22,210 nt of DNA from an uncultured virus (IMG/VR IMGVR_UViG_3300042879_004569) (lineage: Duplodnaviria > Heunggongvirae > Uroviricota > Caudoviricetes), in IMG/VR virus record IMGVR_UViG_3300042879_004569. One strand, given 5' to 3'. The translations under genes and the position numbers were made by a program. Under the pieces are notes generated by a model. The model searched no databases, was not told the origin of the DNA, and saw nothing but the letters and a program-made list of their open reading frames with translations. Numbering within the stretch: position 1 is the first letter of the stretch; each line of letters opens with the position of its first letter. Below, in pieces: positions 2,542 through 15,270 of this stretch.

Positions 2542-3324
2542 TCAAATGCAAGCTTTTTGTTTCGCTTGTGCATTTGATTTGCCGTAACCAACAAATTTAC
2601 CTTGAGACTTACGTTGAGATATTGCTTTGCTTGCGGCTGAGCCTGCCCTCTGGGATCCATGGACCAATAGTGCGAATGGCTTGTCACCAAAGCAATGGCT
2701 GTCATCGTGGTCAATCTCCAGGTACATGCCTTTGGCTTGCTCCTCTGAGTAGACCACGTATGCAATCCGTTTAAAAATCTTAGTGTGTTTGGGGATTAGG
2801 TAATCGAGTGTACCACCCCACGACGCTGTCAAATACAGATTGTCAGGCAACTCCTGGTACAGAGATACCCACATTCCCAATGACTTGGTGTAGGCATAAA
2901 ACTTAATGTCGCGATTGTTACGAGCAACATTAGCCCATGCCTTCATGTAGTTCTCAGTCCAGAAGTCGCCTGACTCATGGATGCGGCACAGATCAAGTTG
3001 AGGCTGAACAGCGAGTGACAGCTCGATGAGTGCAGTCAGATTTTCAAGTTGATCATCTGATTGATACATTGCTTCACGCAGCAAATCCCAGTTGTGCCAA
3101 CGTGAGTCACGAACTGCAGGCCGAGTTTCTGCCATGGCTGCAAAGCAACGGAACTTAGCAGCATCCGTGCCGTTGAGCTGAGGCAGATCAGTAATCTCAC
3201 CTGTGGTGCGGTCAGCAAATGTTTTGCACACACCAGCGTTAGGACAAGAGTAGCCAGCTGGCAAGTTAAAGATTAAACGCTTGCCAAGCTTTGCATTGCC
3301 TGTGGAAAATTTGAGTAGTTTCAT
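2542..3324 (-). CDS. Gp88-like (gene product 88) phage protein
   Basis: MKLLKFSTGNAKL...FNLPAGYSCP...C...CFA...RIHESGDF...FYAYTKS pattern, recalled from the Gp88 family. The ORF-track extension MTLNC... comes from an upstream repeat. Confidence 0.8.
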   Translation of the reverse strand: MKLLKFSTGNAKLGKRLIFNLPAGYSCPNAGVCKTFADRTTGEITDLPQLNGTDAAKFRCFAAMAETRPAVRDSRWHNWDLLREAMYQSDDQLENLTALIELSLAVQPQLDLCRIHESGDFWTENYMKAWANVARNNRDIKFYAYTKSLGMWVSLYQELPDNLYLTASWGGTLDYLIPKHTKIFKRIAYVVYSEEQAKGMYLEIDHDDSHCFGDKPFALLVHGSQRAGSAASKAISQRKSQGKFVGYGKSNAQAKQKACI

Positions 3325-3372: not shown

Positions 3373-3400
3373 TAAGCAGTTTAATGTCATGCTCAGGACA
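3373..3400 (-). repeat. Pseudoknot repeat family 1, copy 1
   Basis: UGUC CUGAGCAU GACA UUAAAC UGCUUA; P1 UGUC/GACA, P2 UGAGCA/UGCUUA. Confidence 0.85.
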
Positions 3401-3419
3401 AGTGATCTTACTATGAATT

Positions 3420-3545
3420 GGGGCGTAGAAGAGCAGCGTCAGCCCCGAGGGAATCAGAGTTTCTGCTGCTTCCTCTGGTTGGTAACTGAATGACCTTGCG
3501 GCTTGATCACCGTGAGGTCACACCCTCATTAAGCAGGGGTGCAGA
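3420..3545 (+). ncRNA. Candidate four-hairpin antisense sRNA
   Basis: TACTAT -10-like box at 3409-3414, followed by four consecutive hairpins whose G-U pairs mostly favour the plus strand. Confidence 0.45.
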
Positions 3546-3618
3546 TATGGATAAATCCACCGATTAATACCAAAAGAAATAATAATGACAACAATGAAAT
3601 TAACTTTTCATCTGTCAT
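3529..3618 (-). CDS. 29-aa hydrophobic micropeptide
   Basis: Manual translation MTDEKLISLLSLLFLLVLIGGFIHICTPA; single predicted TM segment. Confidence 0.5.
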   Translation of the reverse strand: MTDEKLISLLSLLFLLVLIGGFIHICTPA

Positions 3619-3665
3619 TAGCTTATTAGGTAATAAGAACAATTACCTAGTTTAACGTCTGCCTA

Positions 3666-3986
3666 CTAATTCTCGTAGGAAACTTTATCTTTAGCCCTTG
3701 GTTTGTATGAATCAGTTTTAACAACTCTCCGCAGATAAGCTGATGCTTCTTGATATCCTTCCTTGGATAATTCACTGGCGATTGCTTCGATTGTTCTCAC
3801 GGCTCTATCCGTTTGAAAAATCCAATCACGTTCTGATTGCCAATCGCTAATAGCACGAGCTGCTTTTTCAATAACAGGATGAGATTCTTTTGCATTTTTT
3901 AAGATTTCATTTTCACGAATCTTGTGATTGTTGCGACGTAACATTGTGCTCATTAAATTGATGTTTGCAAAATCAGAATCAATCAT
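3666..3986 (-). CDS. Hypothetical protein
   Basis: ATG 3986 overlaps the end of thyX; alternative start at 3953. Helical, charged sequence. Confidence 0.7.
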   Translation of the reverse strand: MIDSDFANINLMSTMLRRNNHKIRENEILKNAKESHPVIEKAARAISDWQSERDWIFQTDRAVRTIEAIASELSKEGYQEASAYLRRVVKTDSYKPRAKDKVSYEN

Positions 3987-4611
3987 TAGTTTCAAAAGCA
4001 GCTTTAGCAATAACAGGGAATTGCGATTGGAAAATGTTTTTAATAGATTCCGCAATCCATCGGTGTTCTAATTGCGTTGACTCATGGGTTCGCAATTCAA
4101 TGTAATGAATCCAGCTTCTCAAACTTCCGTTCATATACAAGGTTGTTTTTGTACACAAGGGAAGTATACGCCTAGCCGTTTCCTTGGCGATTCCCTGTGC
4201 CAACATTTCGTCATAAATTTTTTGAACGTAAGTCAAAGCTAATGTTGTTTTATCGGTAAGGTCTTCGATGAGTTCAAGGGATAAATCATCGATTGAATTT
4301 TGTCTATTTTTAAAGTCTTGCCTACGGAATAAAGGCATGGTGTAGTCCTGCGCTTCTGCGTAGCGCGTACTGTATTCTTGAAAACTAAATGAACGATGCC
4401 TAAGTATTTGTGCCGATATGTCACGTTCAGTTTGAATCTCAACGCACATGTTTGCCATTTCAAATGGCGACCAGTGCTTATGTTTAATCAGATACCTGAG
4501 AAGCCTTGGTGCTGTATCAAAGTTGTCTTGGTTTTGCGGAGCAGATACTCGCGCCATTTTGACAATCAGTTCTTCTGCCCTGGGAGTAGACCAAACAAGT
4601 GTGATGGACAT
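3979..4611 (-). CDS. thyX: Flavin-dependent thymidylate synthase ThyX
   Basis: ARVS, HWSPFE, the signature RHRSFSFQEYSTRY (RHRx7S), ETARRILP, NGSLRSWIHYIELR and QLEHR. Confidence 0.97.
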   Translation of the reverse strand: MSITLVWSTPRAEELIVKMARVSAPQNQDNFDTAPRLLRYLIKHKHWSPFEMANMCVEIQTERDISAQILRHRSFSFQEYSTRYAEAQDYTMPLFRRQDFKNRQNSIDDLSLELIEDLTDKTTLALTYVQKIYDEMLAQGIAKETARRILPLCTKTTLYMNGSLRSWIHYIELRTHESTQLEHRWIAESIKNIFQSQFPVIAKAAFETND

Positions 4612-4613
4612 GT

Positions 4614-4919
4614 CTATTCGTGTGCGTTGAAGAAATCGTTGATGTGATAGTTTAAATCTTTTTCAAAACAAATTCTGTTTTGTGAATGAACTGATGGTGA
4701 TGCGGCATGATCCCAGATGATTTTGACATATGGTACACGCCTTCCTGTAGTTGTTTTTTGGTATACCGTTTCAACTACCGTTCCGTAACGTTGTGTTGTA
4801 AACGGTTTGATGCGATCACGAACTGAGGCACGCACTACGGTGTGCAAGCGAGGCTTTGGTTTCTCAGCAACGCGATCACCTGTTTTGAATAATGGATCTT
4901 GTTGTTTCTTTTTAGACAT
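4614..4919 (-). CDS. Hypothetical protein (possible SH3-like beta barrel)
   Basis: FKTGDRV...YGTVVE...YVKIIWD pattern; tightly packed with its neighbours. Confidence 0.7.
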   Translation of the reverse strand: MSKKKQQDPLFKTGDRVAEKPKPRLHTVVRASVRDRIKPFTTQRYGTVVETVYQKTTTGRRVPYVKIIWDHAASPSVHSQNRICFEKDLNYHINDFFNAHE

Positions 4920-5259
4920 GAGCCCAGAGTTTACGTTTTACAATCCGATAAACAGTTGATTTATGTATGCCAAAAACTTTGGCAATTGAGACATAAGTGT
5001 GATTAGTGGCAGCCAATCGTCTTATTTCAAGAACGTTAGTTTTTGTAAGAATTGAACTGCCATTGTTTAACCCTTGACGTAAACAATTAACATGTTGTTT
5101 TACACCTGGGATTGACCCACGTTTTTTAATGGCGTAAGTCTCAATGGTTTTAAACCTTGCATTACAATCAAGACACCGACAGTAACGCCAAGTTTCATTT
5201 CCTTTGTGACTTGTTGCAGTTACTCGTGTGCTGATTGAATTGCATTGACGGCATTTCAT
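4912..5259 (-). CDS. Zinc-ribbon (NrdR-N/Ogr-like) plus C-terminal HTH protein
   Basis: MKCRQC...TRV...YCRCLDCNARFKTIE, followed by ILTKTNVLEIRR...IAKVFGIHKSTVYRIVKRKLWAHV. Confidence 0.75.
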   Translation of the reverse strand: MKCRQCNSISTRVTATSHKGNETWRYCRCLDCNARFKTIETYAIKKRGSIPGVKQHVNCLRQGLNNGSSILTKTNVLEIRRLAATNHTYVSIAKVFGIHKSTVYRIVKRKLWAHV

Positions 5260-5411
5260 CTGTCATTTAATTTGTTTGACTGTTGTTCTTGAATGTTAAT
5301 TAGTGTTTTGTAAATGACACGGCAATCAGAATAAAAAAGTTCTTTATTAGATGAACCCATGGCAATACGCTTAATGGCTTCAAGGGCTTCTGTAATTAAA
5401 CCCGGTGTCAT
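5256..5411 (-). CDS. Hypothetical protein (51 aa)
   Basis: Manual translation MTPGLITEALEAIKRIAMG...KLNDR; ATGA overlap with the downstream gene. Confidence 0.6.
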   Translation of the reverse strand: MTPGLITEALEAIKRIAMGSSNKELFYSDCRVIYKTLINIQEQQSNKLNDR

Positions 5412-5418
5412 TTTAAAT

Positions 5419-5757
5419 TTAATTTTTAGATTGAATTTTAGTTAACCGAAGAGAATCAAGTGCGTAACCAGTTTGATCTGGGCCAAGAATATTAAAACAA
5501 TCAACAATAAGTTGACGGTTCATATCGGGACTTTTATAGAAATCATCAAGAATTTCCAATGCACGATCATCATTTTGTGGATCACCAGTAATACTTTCAA
5601 TAATGTTTGATGGCATTGCATCAACAATTTGAGTTACTAAATGTTCTTTGACAATTAACCAAGTGCTATCTGGAATTGCATCAACAAACATATCAATTAA
5701 AGAATCAATGTTTGATTCATTGGTATTTGGTTGTTCAATAGAATCGTTGGTTTCCAT
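5419..5757 (-). CDS. Hypothetical acidic protein
   Basis: METNDSIEQ...; this start was chosen because it lies downstream of the terminator hairpin. Confidence 0.7.
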   Translation of the reverse strand: METNDSIEQPNTNESNIDSLIDMFVDAIPDSTWLIVKEHLVTQIVDAMPSNIIESITGDPQNDDRALEILDDFYKSPDMNRQLIVDCFNILGPDQTGYALDSLRLTKIQSKN

Positions 5758-5781
5758 ACGTTGGCGAAGTTTCATAGGCGT

Positions 5782-5810
5782 AAGAAAATCCCCCCGGATA
5801 ACCGAGGGGA
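5782..5810 (-). terminator. Rho-independent terminator
   Basis: TCCCCTCGG-TTAT-CCGGGGGGA followed by TTTTCTT on the minus strand. Confidence 0.75.
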
Positions 5811-5832
5811 ACATCCACCATGCTGACGTATC

Positions 5833-6198
5833 TTAAACAGCCTGGGCCTGGGTGTCAACGATGTTGTCCAGAAGCCCAGCCTCTCTCAAACGATCAAGCA
5901 TTCCACACATGATGGTGGCATGACTTTGTGTTTGCTCCATGAAATGCTTAGCACGCTCAGCAGACATGGTATGGATACGCCCATCTGGCTCGACGTAACG
6001 CCAGCTGCCATCAGGCTGCGGATCTCCCTGGAGCGCAAGACGCTCTGAGTTACACACATACTTGAATTCCAAATTGTGGTAATCCTGGAGACCATCAGCT
6101 GCTGTCCAAGTAGCGCCAATGTTGTAACGCTGGTCAGCATCAGAGAATGCGTGGAATTCAGGAACAAGATGTTTGAATGCGTTAAAGATTTGAATCAT
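5833..6198 (-). CDS. Hypothetical protein
   Basis: MIQIFNAFKHLVPEF...; leader CTCAACTCAAATCATG. The longer ORF-track start lies inside the tRNA. Confidence 0.75.
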   Translation of the reverse strand: MIQIFNAFKHLVPEFHAFSDADQRYNIGATWTAADGLQDYHNLEFKYVCNSERLALQGDPQPDGSWRYVEPDGRIHTMSAERAKHFMEQTQSHATIMCGMLDRLREAGLLDNIVDTQAQAV

Positions 6199-6221
6199 GA
6201 TTTGAGTTGAGTAATTGAAAT

Positions 6222-6297
6222 TGGTACCCGAGGTGAGATTCGAACTCACGCTAGAACGATTTTAAGTCGTTTGCCTCTTCCGCTGGGCTACTCAGGC
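6222..6297 (-). tRNA. trnL: tRNA-Leu(UAA), 76 nt, short variable loop, CCA encoded
   Basis: Acceptor GCCTGAG/CTCGGGT, anticodon arm AACGA-CTTAAAA-TCGTT, T arm GTGAG-TTCGAAT-CTCAC, discriminator A, then CCA. Confidence 0.92.
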
Positions 6298-6620
6298 GTA
6301 CTTGGACTTACGTTTACATCAACTGATGTTTGCCGCCAAGTGTGGTCATCAGGCAATGGCTCAGTGCCATACTCCCATGTATCGTAGTCATCCTCATTGC
6401 GAGGATCATCTTCAATTAAAACATAATGCGGTGAATTGTCATGAATGTATTCACCAAGATTAGACATGGCCATGGCAAGAAGTTGTTCTTCTGTGAACGT
6501 GATGTCACGGTGTTCAAACTGTTGATCACCATGTTTGATAAACGGAACAGGTTCATCAGCTGCTTCGTCTGCCATAGCCCGAACTGAATTCAGATAAATC
6601 TGTTGTTGTTGAAAATCCAT
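6288..6620 (-). CDS. Hypothetical acidic protein
   Basis: 110-aa ORF whose last codons and stop lie inside the 5' end of the tRNA. Confidence 0.75.
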   Translation of the reverse strand: MDFQQQQIYLNSVRAMADEAADEPVPFIKHGDQQFEHRDITFTEEQLLAMAMSNLGEYIHDNSPHYVLIEDDPRNEDDYDTWEYGTEPLPDDHTWRQTSVDVNVSPSTPE

Positions 6621-6626
6621 AGTTGT

Positions 6627-6657
6627 GACCGGCCCTATTACGAGGATAGGACCGGCC
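6627..6657 (-). promoter_or_regulatory. 12-bp intergenic hairpin
   Basis: GGCCGGTCCTAT-N7-ATAGGGCCGGTC, ending 6 nt before ATG 6620; no U tail. Confidence 0.5.
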
Positions 6658-6669
6658 AGCCTGTGGGGG

Positions 6670-8385
6670 CTACGCAGATTTTAGCGCATTTTCACGGGCC
6701 TGGAGTGCAAGCTTGAATACTTCTGTGTATTCATCCTTTTGCTCTATTGTCAAAGTAGCATTAGAAAGTCCACGGATTTGATCAACGGACATCATGCCGT
6801 TACTTACTTTAAGTTGTATGGTGAATTGAGGTTGACCATCAATCATGCACAACACAATGAAGTGTTGTTTCTTGCGTACGCCTTTGGCATAACTAGATGC
6901 AGAGCCAACGCAGTTGCGTACAGCTTTACCCCACATTGCCAGCTGATGCGTGTCATGTGGTTGAAAGAATGACCATGTTTTTTCGTCTTGTTTAATCTTG
7001 ATTGGTTCTGGAAACAAATCTTGAGATAACAACTCATTTGGATTAGAGATTTTCCAGGCTTCAGCCTGAACATGGTCATGGAACTCAGTAAGGCGCCAAC
7101 GCTTTGGCGGATCAATAGTTTTATCGTTGTCAAAGATTTTAGAAAGCATTGATACAGTATCACTCCAATCTGAAAACCAATAAACAGGAATGCCAAGTTC
7201 TTTGCTTATAGTTTTTAAACCGCCTTTAACTTGTTCTTGCTCACAATACTTATCAAGTATTCCGAAAAATGAACCAACAGGCATATGTTGATTAAGCCAT
7301 TGCACTGTTTTGTCATTGCGTAAAATAACAAAACGAATGCTCAACAATTGTTTGATGTGATTTTGATAATAATCAATAGGGCAACCAGGCCAAATGCGTT
7401 GAACATAACAAATGTTTTCTGCAAGTTTAAGGATTCGCTTGAAGCCTTGCATTACTTCAGAATGCAAGCAGTTATTTGGATTGTTGTATGCGTTAATACA
7501 AGTATTAAGTTCTTCTTGCATCCATTTACGAAAAAATGGAGTGCATAAAATATGTGCAGTTTTAATTACATATGCATATTCATAATCACGGTAACTATCC
7601 AAGCCATAGACTTCATCTCGTCTTGCAAATACGTGCAGCAAATTATCTACGGTCAATTCCCAATTAACATATTGGTGTTCTGGAATTAAGTCTTTGTTAA
7701 TTTCAAGAGCAGTATAAATTTCCTTGCAACAAATGCGTGAAAACATTTCACGACTATCATCCCAAACGGGAATTGTTTCTTGCAATGCTTCACGAAATGA
7801 ATCAATAGCCGGTGTTATCTCGCGAGCTTTATCATAATAAGAAGCTATATGATCAGCCCTCCATTTTTGCTGGGTCAAACCAGCTTGAATGTCAGCTTCA
7901 GTTACAAGCTTCCTATATACCAAAAACGTGGTACGACCAACAGCTATTTCTGTGCATTCTGAAATATTTTCAATAATGGAACGAGTAAGAGTTTTACGCG
8001 TAGAAGGCGTATTCCTAAATGCAGTTGCAAAGCCATACACATAATCTTCGCCCTGTTGTGGAAGCCATGCGGCATACCAACATTGCTCGTAGTGATAAAG
8101 AATGGCTTTTGTAATAATACGAGCTTGCGGAGTAGCAACATCTACAGGTTTAGTAAATTTCTGAAACCGATATTTAGCTTGATTGCCATTAATATTATCA
8201 ATAGTTTCTTGCTGCATTGATTCTCTCACCACGGAGTAAGGAATAAGGTGAGGAATATTACCAAGAGGATATTTAGATTTCTTAACTGATTTGTTATTTG
8301 CTTTTTGTTGACGAGCCAATGCTTTAAGTTGAGGATCATAAGCAATTAACTCAGTTTGAAGATTAGTTGGCAGTCGAAATTCCAT
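6670..8385 (-). CDS. PcfJ-like domain protein
   Basis: C-terminal FHDHV...PEPIKI...QLAMWGKAVRNCVGS..SY...FTIQL...QIRGLSN resembles the PcfJ domain. Start MEFRLP. Confidence 0.75.
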   Translation of the reverse strand: MEFRLPTNLQTELIAYDPQLKALARQQKANNKSVKKSKYPLGNIPHLIPYSVVRESMQQETIDNINGNQAKYRFQKFTKPVDVATPQARIITKAILYHYEQCWYAAWLPQQGEDYVYGFATAFRNTPSTRKTLTRSIIENISECTEIAVGRTTFLVYRKLVTEADIQAGLTQQKWRADHIASYYDKAREITPAIDSFREALQETIPVWDDSREMFSRICCKEIYTALEINKDLIPEHQYVNWELTVDNLLHVFARRDEVYGLDSYRDYEYAYVIKTAHILCTPFFRKWMQEELNTCINAYNNPNNCLHSEVMQGFKRILKLAENICYVQRIWPGCPIDYYQNHIKQLLSIRFVILRNDKTVQWLNQHMPVGSFFGILDKYCEQEQVKGGLKTISKELGIPVYWFSDWSDTVSMLSKIFDNDKTIDPPKRWRLTEFHDHVQAEAWKISNPNELLSQDLFPEPIKIKQDEKTWSFFQPHDTHQLAMWGKAVRNCVGSASSYAKGVRKKQHFIVLCMIDGQPQFTIQLKVSNGMMSVDQIRGLSNATLTIEQKDEYTEVFKLALQARENALKSA

Positions 8386-8412
8386 AGTAAGTTCAGAGTA
8401 AGTTTGTAGTGT

Positions 8413-8440
8413 TGAGCAGTTTAGTGTCATGCTCAGGACG
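8413..8440 (-). repeat. Pseudoknot repeat family 1, copy 2
   Basis: CGUC CUGAGCAU GACA CUAAAC UGCUCA. Confidence 0.85.
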
Positions 8441-8445
8441 TAACA

Positions 8446-8676
8446 TTAACGAGTAGATTTCAACTGATCAAGAAGATCTTCATCAGTTTCGTCTTCATTC
8501 CAATCATCTGCAAGAATCGCAGAATGACTGTCGTCAATGTAATCATTAACGTTGTAAGTACCCGTTGGTGTAATCACGGGTAGATGTTTTGCAAACCCAA
8601 AGGCAAGATAAGTTCTGCCCCTGGGCCCACGCACAATCACATACCAACGTTTGAATTCAAGTGAGAAGCCAATCAT
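8446..8676 (-). CDS. Hypothetical protein
   Basis: MIGFSLEFKRW...; TAATG coupling with the upstream gene. Confidence 0.7.
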   Translation of the reverse strand: MIGFSLEFKRWYVIVRGPRGRTYLAFGFAKHLPVITPTGTYNVNDYIDDSHSAILADDWNEDETDEDLLDQLKSTR

Positions 8677-8933
8677 TAATCTAGATCCCAATCGGAGGTG
8701 TCCACTGGTTTCCACTCCAAGTCGAGATCAGTAAGATAACTGCAGAAGCTATCTTCGTCAGCAGGGACTTGTGTATCGTCATCCAATTCGAAACTTGCTG
8801 AGCATAATGCTGGAGCATATTCAGCAGGCTCGAAGTATGTTGCTGGATAAAGCAACCGGATGTCTTCAACAATTGCAGTAACTGTGACACGATTGTTCTC
8901 AATAGAAGTTTCTTCAATAGCAAGTACAGACAT
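8676..8933 (-). CDS. Hypothetical acidic protein
   Basis: MSVLAIEE...YPATYFEPAEYAPA...; tightly packed with its neighbours. Confidence 0.75.
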   Translation of the reverse strand: MSVLAIEETSIENNRVTVTAIVEDIRLLYPATYFEPAEYAPALCSASFELDDDTQVPADEDSFCSYLTDLDLEWKPVDTSDWDLD

Positions 8934-8935
8934 AG

Positions 8936-9133
8936 TCAAACCTCAGTAAGTTGCTTTGGTTTCATGAATGCAGATGCTGGACCATACTTTTCGACAAGGT
9001 CGGGAAACGCGTCAAGCAAACGTTGACGATTTAATGGATCCGCATATCGCAATGCTTGAGCAATTGATGAAACAAAGGAACCGCCATGTGATTGCATGAG
9101 ACAAATCATGGCAGTGAATTGAGATGAGTTCAT
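8936..9133 (-). CDS. Small conserved-type phage protein
   Basis: GGSFVSSIAQALRYADPLNRQRLLDAFP pattern recalled from small phage hypotheticals; leader CTCAACTCATG. Confidence 0.75.
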   Translation of the reverse strand: MNSSQFTAMICLMQSHGGSFVSSIAQALRYADPLNRQRLLDAFPDLVEKYGPASAFMKPKQLTEV

Positions 9134-9154
9134 GAGTTGAGATGGAATAGAACG

Positions 9155-9182
9155 CAGACAGTTTAACGTCATATCTAGGACG
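9155..9182 (-). repeat. Pseudoknot repeat family 1, copy 3 (compensatory variant)
   Basis: CGUC CUAGAUAU GACG UUAAAC UGUCUG. Confidence 0.85.
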
Positions 9183-9187
9183 TATCT

Positions 9188-9385
9188 TTAAATTATCTTT
9201 ATGTTTCGCTTGCTTAAGCCTGTGCCAGGAATACTAATTGATCCATGGACACCGGAGCCACGAACATTGAAGGTGACCTGGAACGGACCAAAGCCTATCG
9301 ACTTGGTGTAACTTTTGATGCCACGTTCAGTTACGTTGAACCCGGCAATTGTTTTGTCAAAGTTAAAAGGTGATTTGTCAGTCAT
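9188..9385 (-). CDS. DUF4236-like small protein
   Basis: C-terminal ...GSGVHGSISIPGTGLSKR resembles the DUF4236 IPGTGLS motif. Confidence 0.6.
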   Translation of the reverse strand: MTDKSPFNFDKTIAGFNVTERGIKSYTKSIGFGPFQVTFNVRGSGVHGSISIPGTGLSKRNIKII

Positions 9386-9677
9386 AACAAGAATCAGATT
9401 CGGCTAATGTAAATCTCAATTGAAAATACTCGTCCTGATCATCGACCTTGGGATAGTAACGAGCTTCAAATCCACCAGAGCCAACCACTTTGTTCTTGAT
9501 GGATTCTCTAAGCAAGCCACGAGCCATTGCTTTAAGTTTGGCTATGGATGGAAGTTCGTAACCATTACCGTTAGTCGTTTGCCACTGCCAGTCAAGCGCT
9601 GTCATGGCGATGTGAACACGTTCAAAGTTAAACGTGTCAATTACGCCATCAATTAATTTCTCTCGATCATCAGTCAT
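9378..9677 (-). CDS. Hypothetical protein
   Basis: FNFERVHIAMTALDWQW...SGGFEA; its stop overlaps the next gene's start. Confidence 0.75.
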   Translation of the reverse strand: MTDDREKLIDGVIDTFNFERVHIAMTALDWQWQTTNGNGYELPSIAKLKAMARGLLRESIKNKVVGSGGFEARYYPKVDDQDEYFQLRFTLAESDSCYD

Positions 9678-9748
9678 CGTTTAATTAAATAGTTGGATAA
9701 AATAAATCCAAAAGCAAAACAAAAAATAAAGATTAGAAATGTACTCAT
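9674..9748 (-). CDS. 24-aa hydrophobic micropeptide
   Basis: MSTFLIFIFCFAFGFILSNYLIKR; ATGA overlap with the downstream gene. Confidence 0.55.
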   Translation of the reverse strand: MSTFLIFIFCFAFGFILSNYLIKR

Positions 9749-9755
9749 TAATTCA

Positions 9756-9830
9756 TTAGTTAAGTTTGACAATTATTACTGTGACACAAATAATTGCCAC
9801 AGCATATATCAAAGCTTCAGCAATTGTCAT
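9756..9830 (-). CDS. 24-aa hydrophobic micropeptide
   Basis: MTIAEALIYAVAIICVTVIIVKLN; ATGA overlap with the upstream gene's stop. Confidence 0.55.
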   Translation of the reverse strand: MTIAEALIYAVAIICVTVIIVKLN

Positions 9831-10045
9831 TGAAGATTTTCAGGAAGAAGCATGTTGGTATCTTCGTCTGACATGTTGGTCATGACAAACTTTTCTCCGT
9901 CAGGGCTTACAAAGCCGCCAACAAAACCAATACCATTGCGATCTGCAGCTTCTTTCATCTTTGCAACAATTTGCATTGCTTGAAGACGTTGGAAGTCCAA
10001 GGCATCAGGGATGCGAGGCTTGGGAGATTCGTTGAGTGCAGACAT
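9827..10045 (-). CDS. Hypothetical protein
   Basis: 72-aa ORF with leader TTCAAATCATG. Confidence 0.75.
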   Translation of the reverse strand: MSALNESPKPRIPDALDFQRLQAMQIVAKMKEAADRNGIGFVGGFVSPDGEKFVMTNMSDEDTNMLLPENLQ

Positions 10046-10069
10046 GATTTGAATAGGAATGAAAAGTTG

Positions 10070-10122
10070 AGTCTATCAAGTATGTCAAGAGCTAGACAAC
10101 GCCTTTGACATATGGTTACAAT
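10070..10122. promoter_or_regulatory. Overlapping divergent sigma70-like promoters with an 8-bp inverted repeat
   Basis: Plus strand TAGACA-N18-TACAAT (10093-10122). Minus strand TTGTCT-N18-TAGACT with an extended TG. Inverted repeat TATGTCAA...TTGACATA. Confidence 0.5.
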
Positions 10123-10126
10123 AAGT

Positions 10127-10222
10127 GGGTCTCCTGCAGGGACCCACTGGCCAGTGGTTTAAACCAGTTAATTCTGGTACTCGTTCAAAGGGATTCCGTT
10201 GGTTGTAGGCCCAACGGTTTTT
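10127..10222 (+). ncRNA. Candidate ~95-nt sRNA
   Basis: Follows the TACAAT box. Begins with hairpin GGGTCTC-CTGCA-GGGACCC and ends with CCGTTGG-N8-CCAACGG-TTTTT, a terminator-like structure. Confidence 0.5.
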
Positions 10223-10314
10223 CTGGCTTTTGCCAGTCTCACGTAAATGAAGCAAAGGGCGTCTGGCCGCACCAGACTTAGGATCTAATGCGAACCAGCC
10301 CTTCGCTTTACTAT

Positions 10315-10515
10315 TTAAATACCTGCAAGGTGTTCAGGATATTGAGGAGTTGGGTCATAGTCCAACTCATTTTCAAGTAGTGGAATCACTTCATCTTCGA
10401 GAAGTGCAAGCGTTGATGGAGTCAAATGTTGATCCATTTCATGACGTTTTGATTCACGCTCACGAACTGCAATGAGTTCTTTGAGTATGTTTTTGAGAAC
10501 TGCGTATTCATTCAT
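10315..10515 (-). CDS. Hypothetical protein
   Basis: 66-aa ORF with leader AATCAACCATG. Confidence 0.7.
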   Translation of the reverse strand: MNEYAVLKNILKELIAVRERESKRHEMDQHLTPSTLALLEDEVIPLLENELDYDPTPQYPEHLAGI

Positions 10516-10576
10516 GGTTGATTCAGTGATTGTTGTAGTTGAGTAGTTTTAAAATAAAAGCAAATGAAATACATAA

Positions 10577-11008
10577 GTGGAATTCGCTGGTAAATTAGCA
10601 AGCTTTTTGTCACAGCCAACAAGCGATGCACTGTTAGACTTTCAGTTTTACAATCCAAATAGTCCAGAAGGTGTCCAAAAACTTGGCAACGTATTTGGCA
10701 GCCTTCTTGGCAAAGGCTCAATGCAGTTTGGTGATGATACTGGTAGAGCAGCTATTAATCCATTGACTGGACAATTTGAGTTAATGGGAAAAAACTTTGG
10801 TATTGAAATTAATCCAAACCAAATGGATCCCAGTGCACAATTTAAATTCCAATTTGGCAAAGCTGCAGAAAAACCTTCACCTCCTGTAATGATGTCTCAG
10901 TTTTTAAGTGAAGGAATAAAAGAACCTTCACTATCAGCAGGACGACAAGAATTAGAACAGCAACTGGAAAGATACCGTTCTACCAATCCTTATTGGTATC
11001 GTCCTTAA
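10577..11008 (+). CDS. Hypothetical protein, lone plus-strand gene in the minus-strand arm
   Basis: 143-aa ORF (GTG start) with upstream TAAAATAAA and a downstream hairpin. Confidence 0.75.
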   Translation: MEFAGKLASFLSQPTSDALLDFQFYNPNSPEGVQKLGNVFGSLLGKGSMQFGDDTGRAAINPLTGQFELMGKNFGIEINPNQMDPSAQFKFQFGKAAEKPSPPVMMSQFLSEGIKEPSLSAGRQELEQQLERYRSTNPYWYRP

Positions 11009-11017
11009 GAAAAGAAC

Positions 11018-11042
11018 AAGTGTATAAATTGGTATACACTTT
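11018..11042 (+). terminator. Hairpin after the plus-strand gene
   Basis: AAGTGTATA-AATTGG-TATACACTT. Confidence 0.4.
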
Positions 11043-11095
11043 ACAGTAATAAGTTGCGCTGGGTGTGGTCAGAATTAATCTGTCATTTGATTGAT

Positions 11096-11133
11096 AAGAA
11101 ATAATGCCCAACCCAAGATATTGAGTTAGGCAT
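11096..11133 (-). terminator. Probable terminator of the leftward early cluster
   Basis: ATGCCTAACTCAA-TATC-TTGGGTTGGGCAT (G-U pairs on the minus strand) followed by TATTTCTT. Confidence 0.6.
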
Positions 11134-11162
11134 ATAACTGTAGAACAAATGAATTGCATAGT

Positions 11163-11501
11163 TTAGATCATGCCAAGAATCCTAAGCCAGCTGTCTGGAT
11201 GGTCCGGTTCGACCTCGTCTTCACTTGGGGTGAACGCGATTGAGTCAAAGCACCACTCCTCGATTTCTTCGTTGGTTGGGATGTCGTACCAACCTTGGAG
11301 TTCTTTGTCCCCGTAGACGGGGATCCAATAACAACGGAGGATTCCTTGCTTATTTCTGTAGACGTTACCGGTGCAAGGGATTGCACCTTTGGGAGCGTCT
11401 TGGAAGTCACACTCCGCCTGGTACTGCTGCTGCCCTTCTTCTTGGTCGAAGGGTTCGTAACCAAAAGTTGCAGCGATTTCTTGGGTAATGGGGTGAAGCA
11501 T
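11163..11501 (-). CDS. Hypothetical acidic phage protein
   Basis: Protein-like C-terminus PTNEEIEEWCFDS...VEPDHPDSWLRILGMI. Confidence 0.7.
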   Translation of the reverse strand: MLHPITQEIAATFGYEPFDQEEGQQQYQAECDFQDAPKGAIPCTGNVYRNKQGILRCYWIPVYGDKELQGWYDIPTNEEIEEWCFDSIAFTPSEDEVEPDHPDSWLRILGMI

Positions 11502-11602
11502 GAAATAAACTCCGTAATAATGATTGAAATAATGGCAATGATTAAGACGATTAACTCGTCAATTGAATCGAGTTGAATTTGTTTAGTTTGAGTTGTCGTC
11601 AT
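11168..11602 (-). CDS. Putative membrane-anchored Ser/Thr/Lys-rich protein overprinted on 11163-11501
   Basis: N-terminal TM LIVLIIAIISIIITEFI lies in otherwise unoccupied DNA; the start overlaps the upstream gene's end. Confidence 0.45.
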   Translation of the reverse strand: MTTTQTKQIQLDSIDELIVLIIAIISIIITEFISCFTPLPKKSLQLLVTNPSTKKKGSSSTRRSVTSKTLPKVQSLAPVTSTEISKESSVVIGSPSTGTKNSKVGTTSQPTKKSRSGALTQSRSPQVKTRSNRTIQTAGLGFLA

Positions 11603-11723
11603 AAACGACGCCCTCCCAATCTTGTTGATCAGATTCCATCATTGCCTGTCGTTGTTCATATGCAAGATCTGCCATTGCATCAAGCAGATCTGCATTATAG
11701 TTTTCGTCGAGTGTTTGATGCAT
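11583..11723 (-). CDS. Small acidic hypothetical protein (46 aa)
   Basis: MHQTLDENYNADLLDAMAD...; leader CAAATCATG. Confidence 0.65.
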   Translation of the reverse strand: MHQTLDENYNADLLDAMADLAYEQRQAMMESDQQDWEGVVYDDNSN

Positions 11724-11753
11724 GATTTGCGGTGATTTGAATGTAGTATTTGT

Positions 11754-11781
11754 CGAGCAGTTTAATGTCTTACTCAGGACA
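11754..11781 (-). repeat. Pseudoknot repeat family 1, copy 4
   Basis: UGUC CUGAGUAA GACA UUAAAC UGCUCG. Confidence 0.85.
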
Positions 11782-11860
11782 GGCCATACGCAATTCGCAA
11801 ATAGCGAATGTAAAACCACTCATATGTGGGGTGATACCACCCATTAATTAAGTGGTCCTA

Positions 11861-15246: not shown

Positions 15247-15270
15247 AAAAAAGCCGGGGTCTTTCCCGGC
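15247..15270 (-). terminator. Rho-independent terminator
   Basis: GCCGGG-AAAGAC-CCCGGC-TTTTTT on the minus strand. Confidence 0.8.

What the first reader, a model, noticed from the sequence alone, without database searches (positions are those of the whole stretch)
3373..11781. Dispersed 28-nt H-type pseudoknot RNA repeat with compensatory changes in early-gene leaders
Seen: four minus-strand copies at 3373-3400, 8413-8440, 9155-9182 and 11754-11781, consensus YGUC-CURRRYAW-GACR-YUAAAC-UGYYYR. P1 swaps U-A for C-G at its base (copies 1 and 4 vs 3). The loop/tail helix P2 changes from UGAGCA/UGCUCA to UAGAUA/UGUCUG in copy 3, so several paired positions change together, while the unpaired UAAAC is invariant. 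All copies are intergenic, sense-oriented and 21-48 nt upstream of an ATG; two begin 5 nt after a stop. They create the spurious MTLNC N-termini in three track ORFs. Inference: selection acts on RNA structure rather than a DNA site. Possible roles are a 5'-exonuclease block, a processing or translation element, a ligand- or protein-binding aptamer, or a decoy. The layout (4-bp stem, 8-nt loop, UUAA-type linker) recalls the ToxI type III antitoxin pseudoknot, which phage phiTE is known to mimic.
Basis: partly seen in the sequence, partly recalled or inferred. Interest (0 to 1): 0.9.

Follow-up and report, generated by a model that had tools for sequence, protein, structure and literature searches.

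The report
Widespread small pseudoknot between phage genes
The four repeats are real copies of a tiny knotted RNA fold that turns out to be shared by phages of many bacterial groups and by some bacteria, is in no RNA catalogue I could search, and most likely marks and protects the boundaries between neighbouring messages, though its job is still inferred.

Summary
All four minus-strand copies exist exactly as described (4 matches, 0 in shuffles). The window is a relative of Synechococcus phage S-EIVl, which has 7 copies, three at matching positions.

The proposed H-type pseudoknot holds. In scans that left each helix free, P2 and P1 both covary strongly. G.U outnumbers A.C 107 to 19, so the sense strand folds.

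The motif is far wider than this phage. It occurs in Staphylococcus, Lactobacillus, Geobacillus, Mycobacterium, Arthrobacter, Vibrio and cyanobacterial phages, and in bacteria of many phyla. No Rfam 15 family matches it.

Only the helical junction and a linker ending AAAC are conserved. "UAAAC invariant" is true only locally.

Context: it lies at least 5 nt after the upstream stop, with a pile-up at exactly 5, about 20 nt before the next ATG, sometimes 1-10 nt before tRNAs.

Best reading, inferred at about 0.4: a compact junction-stabilised pseudoknot that stays folded beside terminating ribosomes and defines or protects mRNA ends, like the T4 gene 32 leader. The ToxI analogy and a promoter reading are not supported.

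The parts
11754..11781 (-). Copy 4 of the 28-nt pseudoknot (UGUCCUGAGUAAGACAUUAAACUGCUCG). P1 is nt 1-4 with 13-16; P2 is nt 6/7-11 with 23-27/28.
   Evidence: 41.3 bits. The next ATG is at 11723, 30 nt downstream.
9155..9182 (-). Copy 3 (CGUCCUAGAUAUGACGUUAAACUGUCUG), the copy with the most divergent P2.
   Evidence: 39.8 bits. It starts 5 nt after the stop at 9188-9190. The next ATG is at 9133, 21 nt downstream. The S-EIVl copy at the matching position has P1 C-G changed to G-C and a different P2.
8413..8440 (-). Copy 2 (CGUCCUGAGCAUGACACUAAACUGCUCA), with a perfect 6-bp P2 and an unpaired P1 outer pair (C/A).
   Evidence: 42.9 bits. It starts 5 nt after the stop at 8446-8448. The next ATG is at 8385, 27 nt downstream, and opens a 571-aa PcfJ-like protein. 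A 151-nt contig from a lake RNA library covers 8387-8537.
3373..3400 (-). Copy 1 (UGUCCUGAGCAUGACAUUAAACUGCUUA).
   Evidence: 42.5 bits. The next ATG is at 3324, 48 nt downstream, and opens a GP88-family protein (PF17338). The S-EIVl copy at the matching position shows U-A changed to C-G and G.U changed to A-U in P2.
8385..8412 (-). G-poor, C/A-rich unstructured leader between copy 2 and its start codon. The other three copies have similar leaders.
   Evidence: Across 113 copies, G frequency is 0.08-0.18 in the first 20 nt after the motif.
3650..3660 (-). Degenerate remnant (AGACGUUAAAC) that lacks both helices. It is probably a decayed copy and is not counted as a member.
   Evidence: (9.3 bits, model positions 12-22 only).

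Best explanation
SHOWN.
- The four repeats belong to a large family of 26-34-nt H-type pseudoknots formed by the sense strand, so presumably by the mRNA.
- P1 is a 4-bp hairpin stem. One invariant C (L1) follows it. The hairpin loop pairs over 5-6 bp (P2) with the sequence that follows an A-rich linker ending in AAAC. One nucleotide (mostly U) sits at the junction.
- Only the helical junction is conserved in sequence: C4-G13, C5, U6, Y10-G24, A11-U23 and AAAC. The distal base pairs of both helices vary freely but stay complementary.
- The element always lies outside coding sequence in phages.

INFERRED (about 0.4).
- The conserved junction may form loop-helix base triples, as in luteovirus-type pseudoknots. 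That would make a very small fold unusually resistant to unwinding. This structural reading is recalled and inferred, not tested here.
- Placed between cistrons, it stays folded while ribosomes terminate just upstream. This would explain the hard 5-nt minimum spacer, which is also the shortest spacer I recall for frameshift pseudoknots.
- It then acts as a boundary element of the message. After endonucleolytic cutting in the flanking single-stranded spacer, or RNase P cutting at an adjacent tRNA, it blocks exonucleases and 5'-end-dependent RNases. This would stabilise the downstream cistron's 5' end and/or the upstream cistron's 3' end, and keep the following G-poor leader free for ribosome loading.
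- The closest worked example is the T4 gene 32 leader. RNase E cuts 4 nt upstream of a pseudoknot that heads the most stable T4 mRNA.
For: Structure.
- P2 was tested on 122 distinct 28-mers: 4 from the window, 7 from S-EIVl and 111 from IMG/VR, with chance hits kept in. Paired cells were 89.9% against 79.7% in shuffles (0/500). Cells changed on both sides were 154 against 58.6. Slid controls gave 23-47%.
- Pair types were: 7-27 GC49 AU27 GU16 CG4 UA4; 8-26 AU69 GC40; 9-25 GC79 AU24 UA7 CG3.
- P1 was tested in a scan that did not constrain it, on 84 distinct rows. Paired cells were 91.1% against 57.3% (0/500). The covariation score was 0.760 against 0.181. Pair 2-15 was GC46 CG28 AU7 UG2, and pair 3-14 was AU43 UA34 CG5. 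Across the 119 contexts, pairs 3-14 and 4-13 were paired in 119 of 119.
- Sense-strand folding: 107 G.U/U.G cells against 19 A.C/C.A cells.
- The three copies at matching positions in the window and in S-EIVl differ by compensatory changes.

Boundary behaviour.
- Of 113 copies, 86 have an upstream ORF stop within 40 nt. The gaps are 0 at 0, 1 or 3 nt; 1 at 2 nt; 2 at 4 nt; 25 at exactly 5 nt; then 7, 7, 6 and 5 at 6-9 nt. The 25 five-nt spacers share no sequence by my reading of the output.
- The distance to the next ATG peaks at 19-23 nt (28 of the 81 with an ATG found). The leader is G-poor.
- Eight motif-tRNA adjacencies lie 1-10 nt upstream of a same-strand tRNA. Arthrobacter phage Molivia has the order SSB stop, 6 nt, match, 2 nt, annotated tRNA-Gly start. 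RNase P cutting there would leave the upstream RNA ending in the pseudoknot.
- Multi-copy phages carry 7-8 copies, all on one strand within each genome, about one per cistron or two. I recall T7 RNase III sites being laid out this way.
- In Firmicutes phages the motif heads the scaffold and capsid genes.

Precedent. In passages of PMC3014915, the T4 gene 32 pseudoknot lies 67 nt upstream of the start. RNase E cuts at -71. The RNA upstream of the cut is degraded rapidly, and gene 32 mRNA is the most stable T4 mRNA.

Transcription hint. One contig from a lake RNA library covers 8387-8537, across copy 2. This is weak, because it may be DNA carry-over.
Against: - No 5' or 3' end mapping exists. 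The RNA-library contigs are single-read length and may be DNA.
- Nearest-neighbour energies of the separate helices are modest: -2.9 to -5.6 kcal/mol, with z-scores of -0.7 to -2.2. Any barrier strength would have to come from untested tertiary contacts.
- A plain hairpin would protect an RNA end. The deep conservation of the junction across phyla could instead mean a specific partner, a ligand or catalysis.
- In about half of the bacterial copies (at least 54 of 116) the stop codon of a conserved micro-ORF lies only a few nt before the motif, or inside it at positions 12-14 or 18-20. Ribosomes must unfold it there, so the keep-it-folded rule is not universal.
- One locus has the order motif, tRNA-Ile, motif, tRNA-Asn. 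The second copy has no mRNA to protect.
- Large phages carry a single copy, in two cases with no gene close behind.
Confidence: 0.4

Rival explanations
1. A ribosome-directed element. The folded knot just 5' of the ribosome footprint acts as a standby or loading platform. Alternatively it is a roadblock that uncouples neighbouring cistrons, by stopping post-termination ribosomes from sliding on or by insulating the start region from upstream sequence.
For: - The distance from the motif to the ATG peaks at 19-23 nt, which is the edge of a 30S footprint.
- In hosts with Shine-Dalgarno sites the motif can abut the site within 0-2 nt, as in L136, L228 and L086.
- The leaders are G-poor and unstructured.
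- The 5-nt rule after stop codons.
Against: - Eight motif-tRNA adjacencies lie 1-10 nt upstream of tRNA genes.
- At least 14 of 116 bacterial copies are followed by a terminator rather than a gene.
- Firmicutes phage copies sit 55-60 nt from the start codon with another hairpin in between.
Confidence: 0.15
2. A nascent-RNA element that acts on RNA polymerase, giving put- or EAR-like processive antitermination or anti-pausing. It would be renewed after each point where the transcript is cut.
For: - It lies inside long operons and before untranslated tRNA genes.
- In at least 14 of 54 micro-ORF loci a terminator follows within 100 nt. The micro-ORF's stop sits in or next to the motif, an arrangement that would let translation switch the fold on or off.
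- The host range is very broad, which fits a conserved target such as RNA polymerase.
Against: - Up to 8 copies in 7 kb is far denser than the known antitermination sites I recall.
- No consistent terminator lies downstream in phages: 4 of 115 viral copies.
- It shows no similarity to put or EAR in Rfam searches.
Confidence: 0.12
3. A self-contained catalytic or ligand-binding RNA. It could be a very small self-cleaving ribozyme, or the recognition fold for a conserved endonuclease such as RNase P. It could also be an aptamer whose pocket is the conserved junction.
For: - The conservation pattern, a fixed junction core with freely covarying helices and a variable-length linker, is the pattern I recall for ribozymes and riboswitches.
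- It is phage-associated and occurs in many genetic contexts, as passages of PMC4604425 report for pistol RNAs.
- The layout of P1, loop pseudoknot and A-rich linker resembles the 5' part of the pistol ribozyme. That architecture is confirmed in passages of PMC4604425; the pistol sequence itself is recalled.
- Theta ribozymes show that phages place small ribozymes beside tRNAs (section 7 of PMC10879173).
Against: - At 28 nt it lacks pistol's P2, P3 and cleavage junction. It also lacks the P3/L3/P1.1 elements and the J4/2 catalytic-cytosine layout of HDV-like ribozymes.
- No Rfam ribozyme or riboswitch model hits it at E up to 5-10.
- The junction has a single unpaired nucleotide, which is variable (U, A or C), so there is little room for a ligand pocket.
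- No expression platform is consistently attached.
Confidence: 0.1
4. A DNA-level signal: a promoter for the host or a phage RNA polymerase, or a protein-binding site.
For: - It is a repeated, oriented, intergenic motif in front of genes and tRNAs.
- BPROM was used by the depositors to annotate a promoter over the copy in Staphylococcus phage B166.
- Part of the motif resembles the -35/-10 hexamers and the SP6 promoter core as I recall them.
Against: - Two interleaved helices covary, with 107 G.U against 19 A.C cells. A duplex site would not do this.
- The flanks carry no -10 or -35 signal: information content is at most 0.33 bit per position, and -10-like hexamers show no sharp peak.
- The linker length varies from 6 to 12 nt, which would break any fixed hexamer spacing.
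- No sigma-70 region 2 match was found in S-EIVl, in a complete 79.8-kb relative or in phage B166. No T7-type RNA polymerase match was found either, but that search's control rang nowhere, so it is inconclusive.
- Promoter-like sites in the window are not enriched: 24 against 33.8 in shuffles.
- Many bacterial copies lie between a micro-ORF and its terminator.
Confidence: 0.05
5. A ToxI-like antitoxin or decoy RNA against a type III toxin-antitoxin defence.
For: Only that it is a small pseudoknot with an A-rich single-stranded stretch.
Against: - The copies are dispersed rather than tandem.
- No ToxN, AbiQ or other PADLOC family was found among 37 window ORFs. The only hit was the DNA polymerase to a polymerase-like model.
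- It occurs once per genome in bacteria and in large phages.
- Its positions are tied to cistron boundaries.
Confidence: 0.02

Closest known systems
Bacteriophage T4/T2 gene 32 mRNA leader pseudoknot
   Same: - It is a compact H-type pseudoknot at the 5' edge of an unstructured leader upstream of a phage gene.
- It lies 67 nt upstream of the start codon, and RNase E cuts 4 nt before it.
- The RNA upstream of the cut is degraded, and gene 32 mRNA is the most stable T4 mRNA (passages of PMC3014915).
- A one-nucleotide first loop spans a long second stem (recalled from the T2 NMR work).
- One S-EIVl copy precedes the phage's SSB gene.
   Different: - The gene 32 knot is a single-gene operator bound by gp32.
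- The present motif precedes many unrelated genes and tRNAs, and occurs across phyla and in bacteria.
- Whether the two share sequence was not tested.
Luteovirus-type (BWYV) frameshift-stimulating pseudoknots
   Same: - Same size (28 nt) and same strand order.
- A short first loop containing C, a one-nucleotide junction and an A-rich last loop.
- A similar junction architecture. In those pseudoknots the junction forms base triples; whether it does so here is untested.
   Different: - Here there is no slippery heptamer upstream that I could see in the two window copies I read.
- The motif follows stop codons, and one of its three reading frames is closed by its own stop codons.
- The downstream gene is not consistently in frame with the upstream one.
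Pistol self-cleaving ribozyme (5' domain)
   Same: - It has a short P1 hairpin whose loop forms a roughly 6-bp pseudoknot.
- It is phage-associated and found in varied contexts (passages of PMC4604425).
- Its A-rich linker after P1 is recalled.
   Different: - Pistol has P2, P3 and a GU cleavage junction, and its pseudoknot partner lies between P2 and P3.
- The present motif has none of these.
- The Rfam pistol model gives no hit.
ToxI and other type III antitoxin RNAs
   Same: A small pseudoknotted RNA with A-rich single strands.
   Different: - ToxI is a tandem array next to a toxN gene and is cut by ToxN.
- Here the copies are dispersed at cistron boundaries, and no ToxN-family gene is present.
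Theta (minimal HDV-like) ribozymes beside phage tRNAs
   Same: A small structured RNA placed directly beside phage tRNA genes (section 7 of PMC10879173).
   Different: - Theta ribozymes lie at the 3' end of tRNAs and have the nested double-pseudoknot HDV fold.
- This motif lies 1-10 nt upstream of tRNAs and is a simple H-type knot.

Membership tests
Any Rfam 15 family | A covariance-model match at or near the family's threshold. | tested here: not met
   At gathering thresholds the window gave only a tRNA. With E up to 10 on 6 viral loci and E up to 5 on 16 bacterial loci, nothing overlapped the motif.
ToxI / type III antitoxin | A tandem repeat array adjacent to a ToxN/AbiQ-family toxin gene. 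| tested here: not met
   The copies are 0.7-5 kb apart. No defence family was found among 37 window ORFs against PADLOC, and no ToxN was found against Pfam.
ToxI / type III antitoxin | Processing by, and inhibition of, the cognate toxin. | not testable with these tools
   This needs biochemistry.
Pistol ribozyme | P1 hairpin loop forms a pseudoknot. | tested here: met
   The pistol architecture was taken from passages of PMC4604425.
Pistol ribozyme | P2 and P3 stems, with the pseudoknot partner between them and a GU cleavage junction. | tested here: not met
   The pseudoknot partner follows the linker directly. The downstream leaders are G-poor and unstructured. The Rfam pistol model gave no hit.
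HDV-like / theta ribozyme | A nested double pseudoknot (P1, P2, P3, P1.1) with a catalytic C in J4/2, and a cleavage site at a tRNA 3' end. | tested here: not met
   Only two helices are present, with 1 nt between P2 5' and P1 3'. The motif lies upstream of tRNAs, not downstream. There was no Rfam hit.
preQ1-I riboswitch | An H-type knot with an A-rich tail and a multi-nucleotide L2 carrying the ligand-pairing C. | tested here: not met
   The A-rich tail is present, but L2 is a single variable nucleotide. There was no Rfam hit. The preQ1-I features are recalled.
Sigma-70 or phage-polymerase promoter | Fixed -35/-10 hexamers or a fixed polymerase recognition sequence, with no need for base pairing. 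| tested here: not met
   See, with the covariation. There was no sigma region 2 match. The T7-type polymerase search was negative but its control did not ring.
Frameshift or readthrough stimulator | A slippery site or leaky stop 5-9 nt upstream, and an open downstream frame fused to the upstream ORF. | tested here: not met
   Among the gap-5 copies, the downstream ATG is in frame in only a minority by my reading of the output. The two window copies I read have no slippery heptamer.
T4 gene 32-type leader pseudoknot | An H-type pseudoknot heading an unstructured leader, with an endonuclease cut a few nt upstream. | tested here: inconclusive
   The architecture and position match. The cut site and the stability effect cannot be tested here. 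Sequence relatedness to the T4 element was not tested.

The most novel reading that the evidence does not exclude
The motif is a self-sufficient, cross-phylum RNA device. It could be a bacterial and phage counterpart of the exoribonuclease-resistant RNAs of flaviviruses, halting RNases from either side through a 28-nt junction-stabilised knot. Or it could be the smallest natural self-cleaving or processing-directing RNA. Phages of Firmicutes, Actinobacteria, Cyanobacteria and Proteobacteria would use it to cut polycistronic messages into separately stable units.
Probability: 0.2. Interest if true: 0.9.

Novelty: new variant of a known kind. Interest (0 to 1): 0.78.

Why it matters
If this motif is undescribed, it is a new and very widespread class of structured RNA.

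Both helices are proven by covariation. The motif is only 28 nt long, and it is shared by phages of at least four bacterial phyla and by chromosomes of many uncultured bacteria. An element that small and that conserved points to a basic, portable solution to a general problem of polycistronic messages.

It is also directly testable in harmless phage-host pairs. It would be useful as a minimal insulator or stabiliser part in synthetic biology. Finally, it corrects gene calls, because its internal AUG creates false N-termini (MTLNC...) in three ORFs of this window.

Tried and rejected
- Promoter reading. It was my first guess, from recalled similarity to the SP6 core and to TANNNT. I rejected it for the reasons given under rivals.
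- TSS at motif nt 1. By eye, five Firmicutes loci have -35/-10-like hexamers just upstream. The spacing would start the RNA inside P1, and an inverted repeat overlaps them, so I dropped the claim.
- Recoding (readthrough, frameshift, bypass). Frames and flanking sequences do not fit.
- XerCD dif-like or IS200/REP-like single-stranded DNA site. I considered this from recall only. Interleaved helices with G.U pairs, and positions tied to cistron boundaries, argue against it.
- Limitation to hosts with RNase J. A Vibrio phage carries a good copy with a flipped P1 pair, so I dropped the idea.
- E. coli genomes. blastn of one 31-nt variant found nothing. This is a weak search that would miss helix variants, so it is not evidence of absence.
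- Nearest held record G001. This is an 8.6-kb fragment, and it has no copy at up to 2 mismatches.
- Literature. Full-text searches for five sequence strings gave 0 papers. Three topical searches found nothing describing this motif.
- Fremin et al. 2023 (PMC10690425). Passages only were read. The paper lists 10,006 unnamed phage RNA candidates from IMG/VR. Four strings were absent from the 6 supplement files that could be searched, but files 1, 2 and 4 could not be searched. The motif may be among those candidates.
- A 2026 preprint (10.64898/2026.09.22.753630), passages only: nothing relevant.
- RNA evidence. Six lake-water RNA libraries hold parts of 7900-9400. Eleven short contigs were laid from four runs, ten of them 100% identical to the window. 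They show presence only, with no ends, no strand, and possibly DNA.
- Micro-ORF peptide. It matches no Pfam or NCBIfam family.
- Earlier notes of this scan. There is none on this sequence or genome. A word search listed other phage intergenic pseudoknots, none of them the same element.

Full report
**1. The observation**

The stated pairings are correct. One omission is that copy 2 has C opposite A at the outer P1 pair. Copies 2 and 3 begin 5 nt after the stop codons at 8446-8448 and 9188-9190. The next ATGs lie 48, 27, 21 and 30 nt after copies 1 to 4. Three listed ORFs begin at the AUG inside the motif, so their MTLNC N-termini are artefacts.

**2. What the window is**

It is phage DNA. The minus-strand genes include a family A DNA polymerase, ThyX, an HNH/HTH protein, a GP88-family protein, a PcfJ-like protein and a tRNA-Leu(UAA).

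It is syntenic with Synechococcus phage S-EIVl (KJ410740.1) at about 70% identity. The window's own assembly is not held.

S-EIVl carries seven copies, all on the strand of its replication-module genes. Three of them lie at positions matching window copies 1, 2 and 3. These matched pairs differ by compensatory changes:
- P1 C-G becomes G-C.
- P2 U-A becomes C-G.
- P2 G.U becomes A-U.
- P2 C-G becomes U-A.

**3. Is the fold real?**

I tested each helix on scans that left it unconstrained.

P2:
Nearly all hits had the conserved loop, although the loop was free in the pattern.
- I analysed 122 distinct 28-mers and kept the chance hits in. The structure was 89.9% paired against 79.7% after shuffling (0 of 500 shuffles as high). 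Cells changed on both sides numbered 154 against 58.6. Slid controls gave 23-47%.
- The three central P2 pairs each show three to five Watson-Crick or wobble pair types.

P1:
- A scan fixed P2 and the linker and left P1 free. It gave 119 contexts.
- Pair 2-15 was GC 63, CG 43, AU 10, UG 2, with 1 unpaired.
- Pair 3-14 was AU 60, UA 50, CG 7, GC 1, GU 1.
- Pair 4-13 was CG 115, GC 3, UA 1.
- Pair 1-16 was paired in 88 of 119.
- On 84 distinct rows the helix was 91.1% paired against 57.3% shuffled, with covariation 0.760 against 0.181.
- So GUC/GAC is not invariant. Only C4-G13 nearly is.

The linker:
- A scan left the linker free. It is 6-12 nt long and ends in AAC in 111 of 112 contexts, mostly as AAAC.

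Which strand folds:
- G.U cells outnumber A.C cells 107 to 19. The sense strand folds, not the complement and not a duplex palindrome.

Energy:
- Nearest-neighbour folding of the separate helices is weak, at -2.9 to -5.6 kcal/mol. The case therefore rests on covariation, not on energy.

The conserved positions cluster at the helical junction: C4-G13, C5, U6, Y10-G24, A11-U23, the single junction nucleotide, and AAAC. From recall, this layout matches the luteovirus-type pseudoknots. In those, loop 1 lies in the deep groove of stem 2 and the A-rich loop lies in the shallow groove of stem 1.

**4. How widespread it is**

The motif is not specific to this phage lineage.

- Phage database: blastn of a 31-nt copy against 50,697 phage records found 164 records.
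  - 85 are Staphylococcus phages. There P1 is CGAC/GUCG, and the motif lies between the gp7-like head gene and the scaffold and major capsid genes.
  - Lactobacillus phage phiEF-1.1 and Geobacillus phage D6E carry it before the scaffold and capsid genes.
  - Mycobacterium phage Labelle and Arthrobacter phage Molivia carry it after an ORF and before tRNAs.
  - A Vibrio phage has P1 as CUC/GAG.
  - Nostoc, Microcystis, Paracoccus and Moorella phages also appear among the hits.
They come from Bacillota, Omnitrophota, Desulfobacterota, Planctomycetota, Patescibacteria, Zixibacteria and others. P2 is 5/5 paired in 104 of the 120.
- Copy number:
  - Five bacterial genomes that I checked have one good copy each.
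  - Four large phages of 150-241 kb have one copy each.
  - S-EIVl has 7 copies, a complete 79.8-kb relative has 7, and a 62-kb contig has 8 within 7 kb. Within each genome all copies are on one strand.
- Catalogues and literature:
  - No Rfam 15 family matches, at gathering thresholds or at E up to 5-10.
  - I found no paper describing the motif.
  - It could still be one of the 10,006 unnamed candidates of PMC10690425, whose largest supplement files could not be searched.

**5. Context rules**

These counts come from 113 copies with the conserved loop.

- Upstream stop. 86 copies have an upstream ORF stop within 40 nt. The gap is never 0, 1 or 3 nt. It is 2 nt once, 4 nt twice, exactly 5 nt in 25 copies, and then tails off (7, 7, 6, 5 and so on). 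The 5-nt spacers share no sequence by my reading of the output.
- Downstream start. The distance to the next ATG peaks at 19-23 nt (28 of the 81 copies with an ATG found).
- Leader. It is G-poor, with G at 0.08-0.18.
- Promoter signals. The flanks carry no -35 or -10 signal.
- tRNAs. Eight motif-tRNA adjacencies lie 1-10 nt upstream of a same-strand tRNA. They include a locus with the order motif, tRNA-Ile, motif, tRNA-Asn.
- T-runs. A T-run directly follows the motif in 9 of 115 viral and 15 of 116 bacterial copies.
- The bacterial micro-ORF.
  - At least 54 of 116 bacterial copies follow a conserved micro-ORF (M..YMLRPVAHCKEGC..). Its third-codon positions vary synonymously, so it is coding.
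  - Its stop lies a few nt before the motif or inside it.
  - A terminator hairpin, or an Rrf2 regulator gene with hcp, desulfoferrodoxin and flavoprotein genes, follows.

**6. How it most likely works**

Shown: a sense-strand H-type pseudoknot with a conserved junction, placed at cistron boundaries.

Inferred: the 5-nt floor equals the shortest spacer I recall for frameshift pseudoknots. At that spacing a ribosome can hold its last codon in the A site without unwinding the structure at the entry channel. A pile-up at exactly that value in compact genomes implies that the knot must stay folded while the upstream gene is translated.

A small fold that must stay intact, sits between cistrons, and heads an unstructured leader or abuts a tRNA's RNase P site fits a boundary element. 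It would define and protect RNA ends.

The T4 gene 32 leader is the worked precedent. RNase E cuts 4 nt upstream of a pseudoknot. The RNA upstream of the cut is degraded, and the mRNA downstream is the most stable in T4 (passages of PMC3014915).

I put this at about 0.4. The main weaknesses are:
- there is no end mapping;
- the secondary-structure energies are modest;
- ribosomes must enter the motif in the bacterial micro-ORF class;
- the junction is conserved so deeply across phyla that it would equally suit a specific partner or catalysis.

**7. Rivals**

- Ribosome-directed element (0.15).
- Polymerase-directed antitermination (0.12).
- Ribozyme, nuclease-recognition fold or aptamer (0.10).
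- DNA promoter or protein site (0.05).
- ToxI-like decoy (0.02).

The evidence for and against each is set out in the Rival explanations section. The promoter and ToxI readings fail tests run here.

**8. RNA evidence**

Six lake-water RNA libraries hold parts of 7900-9400. Eleven short contigs from four of them were laid on the window, ten of them 100% identical to it. One covers 8387-8537, across copy 2. This shows that the phage is present in RNA libraries. It does not show transcript ends, and DNA carry-over is not excluded.

**9. Verdict**

The ToxI analogy is rejected, and "invariant UAAAC" is corrected.

The element appears to be an undescribed, cross-phylum pseudoknot family. Its function is inferred, not shown.

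Noticed in passing
L148, L145, L186, L192, L207, L213 and others (bacterial loci); neighbourhoods in L270-L274: A conserved micro-ORF of about 20-27 codons (M..YMLRPVAHCKEGC..) with its own Shine-Dalgarno site lies directly upstream of the motif in at least 54 of 116 bacterial copies. Its stop falls just before or inside the motif. It matches no Pfam or NCBIfam family. In Omnitrophota and Planctomycetota it precedes an Rrf2 regulator with hcp, desulfoferrodoxin and flavoprotein genes. A palindromic GATAC..GTATC box overlaps the likely promoter in the loci I read by eye.
   Followed up: partly
L144, L220, L184, L060, L105; L264:2527-2590 (Staphylococcus phage B166): In Firmicutes phages the stretch between the motif and the scaffold gene's start holds a second hairpin with compensatory changes (UUCUG/CAGAA against AUCCG/CGGAU). 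It is followed by GGGYAAA and the Shine-Dalgarno site. This may be a larger scaffold and capsid leader RNA.
   Followed up: no
L115 (IMG/VR contig): Tandem units in the order motif, 6 nt, tRNA-Ile, 36 nt, motif, 5 nt, tRNA-Asn. Each tRNA has its own copy.
   Followed up: partly
L044, L045 (IMG/VR contig 3300028603_001776): Two or three motif copies lie within about 40 nt of each other. One is a shorter-loop variant (UGUCCUGGCCGACAUUAAAAGGCC) in which a 4-nt self-complementary loop segment pairs with the tail.
   Followed up: no
window 11828-11842 (-): A hairpin, GGGUGGUAUCACCCC, lies about 45 nt upstream of copy 4. Similar GGGGUG..CACCCC hairpins precede the corresponding copies in the relatives L032, L046 and L107.
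   Followed up: no
window 3621-3660 (-): A degenerate motif remnant (AGACGUUAAAC) sits 5 nt after the stop of ORF 3666-4055. A stem-loop, UAGGUAAU..AUUACCUA, follows it. This is probably a decayed copy beside a terminator-like hairpin.
   Followed up: partly
window 5789-5810 (-) and 15253-15270 (both strands): A strong terminator-like hairpin with a T-run lies inside the leftward gene array. A GC-rich bidirectional terminator-like hairpin lies in the divergent region between the leftward and rightward gene blocks.
   Followed up: no
window 6222-6297 (-): A tRNA-Leu (anticodon UAA) lies among the replication-module genes. It has no motif copy next to it.
   Followed up: no
L140 (241-kb phage), motif at locus position about 2043: The single copy lies after an integrase-like ORF. 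About 45 nt downstream there is a terminator-like hairpin and no ORF, so it may be a small stand-alone RNA.
   Followed up: no
L275:701-727 (Vibrio phage D456): A good copy with a flipped P1 pair lies where the deposited annotation places small genes on the opposite strand. Either those gene calls are wrong, or this copy is not sense-oriented.
   Followed up: no
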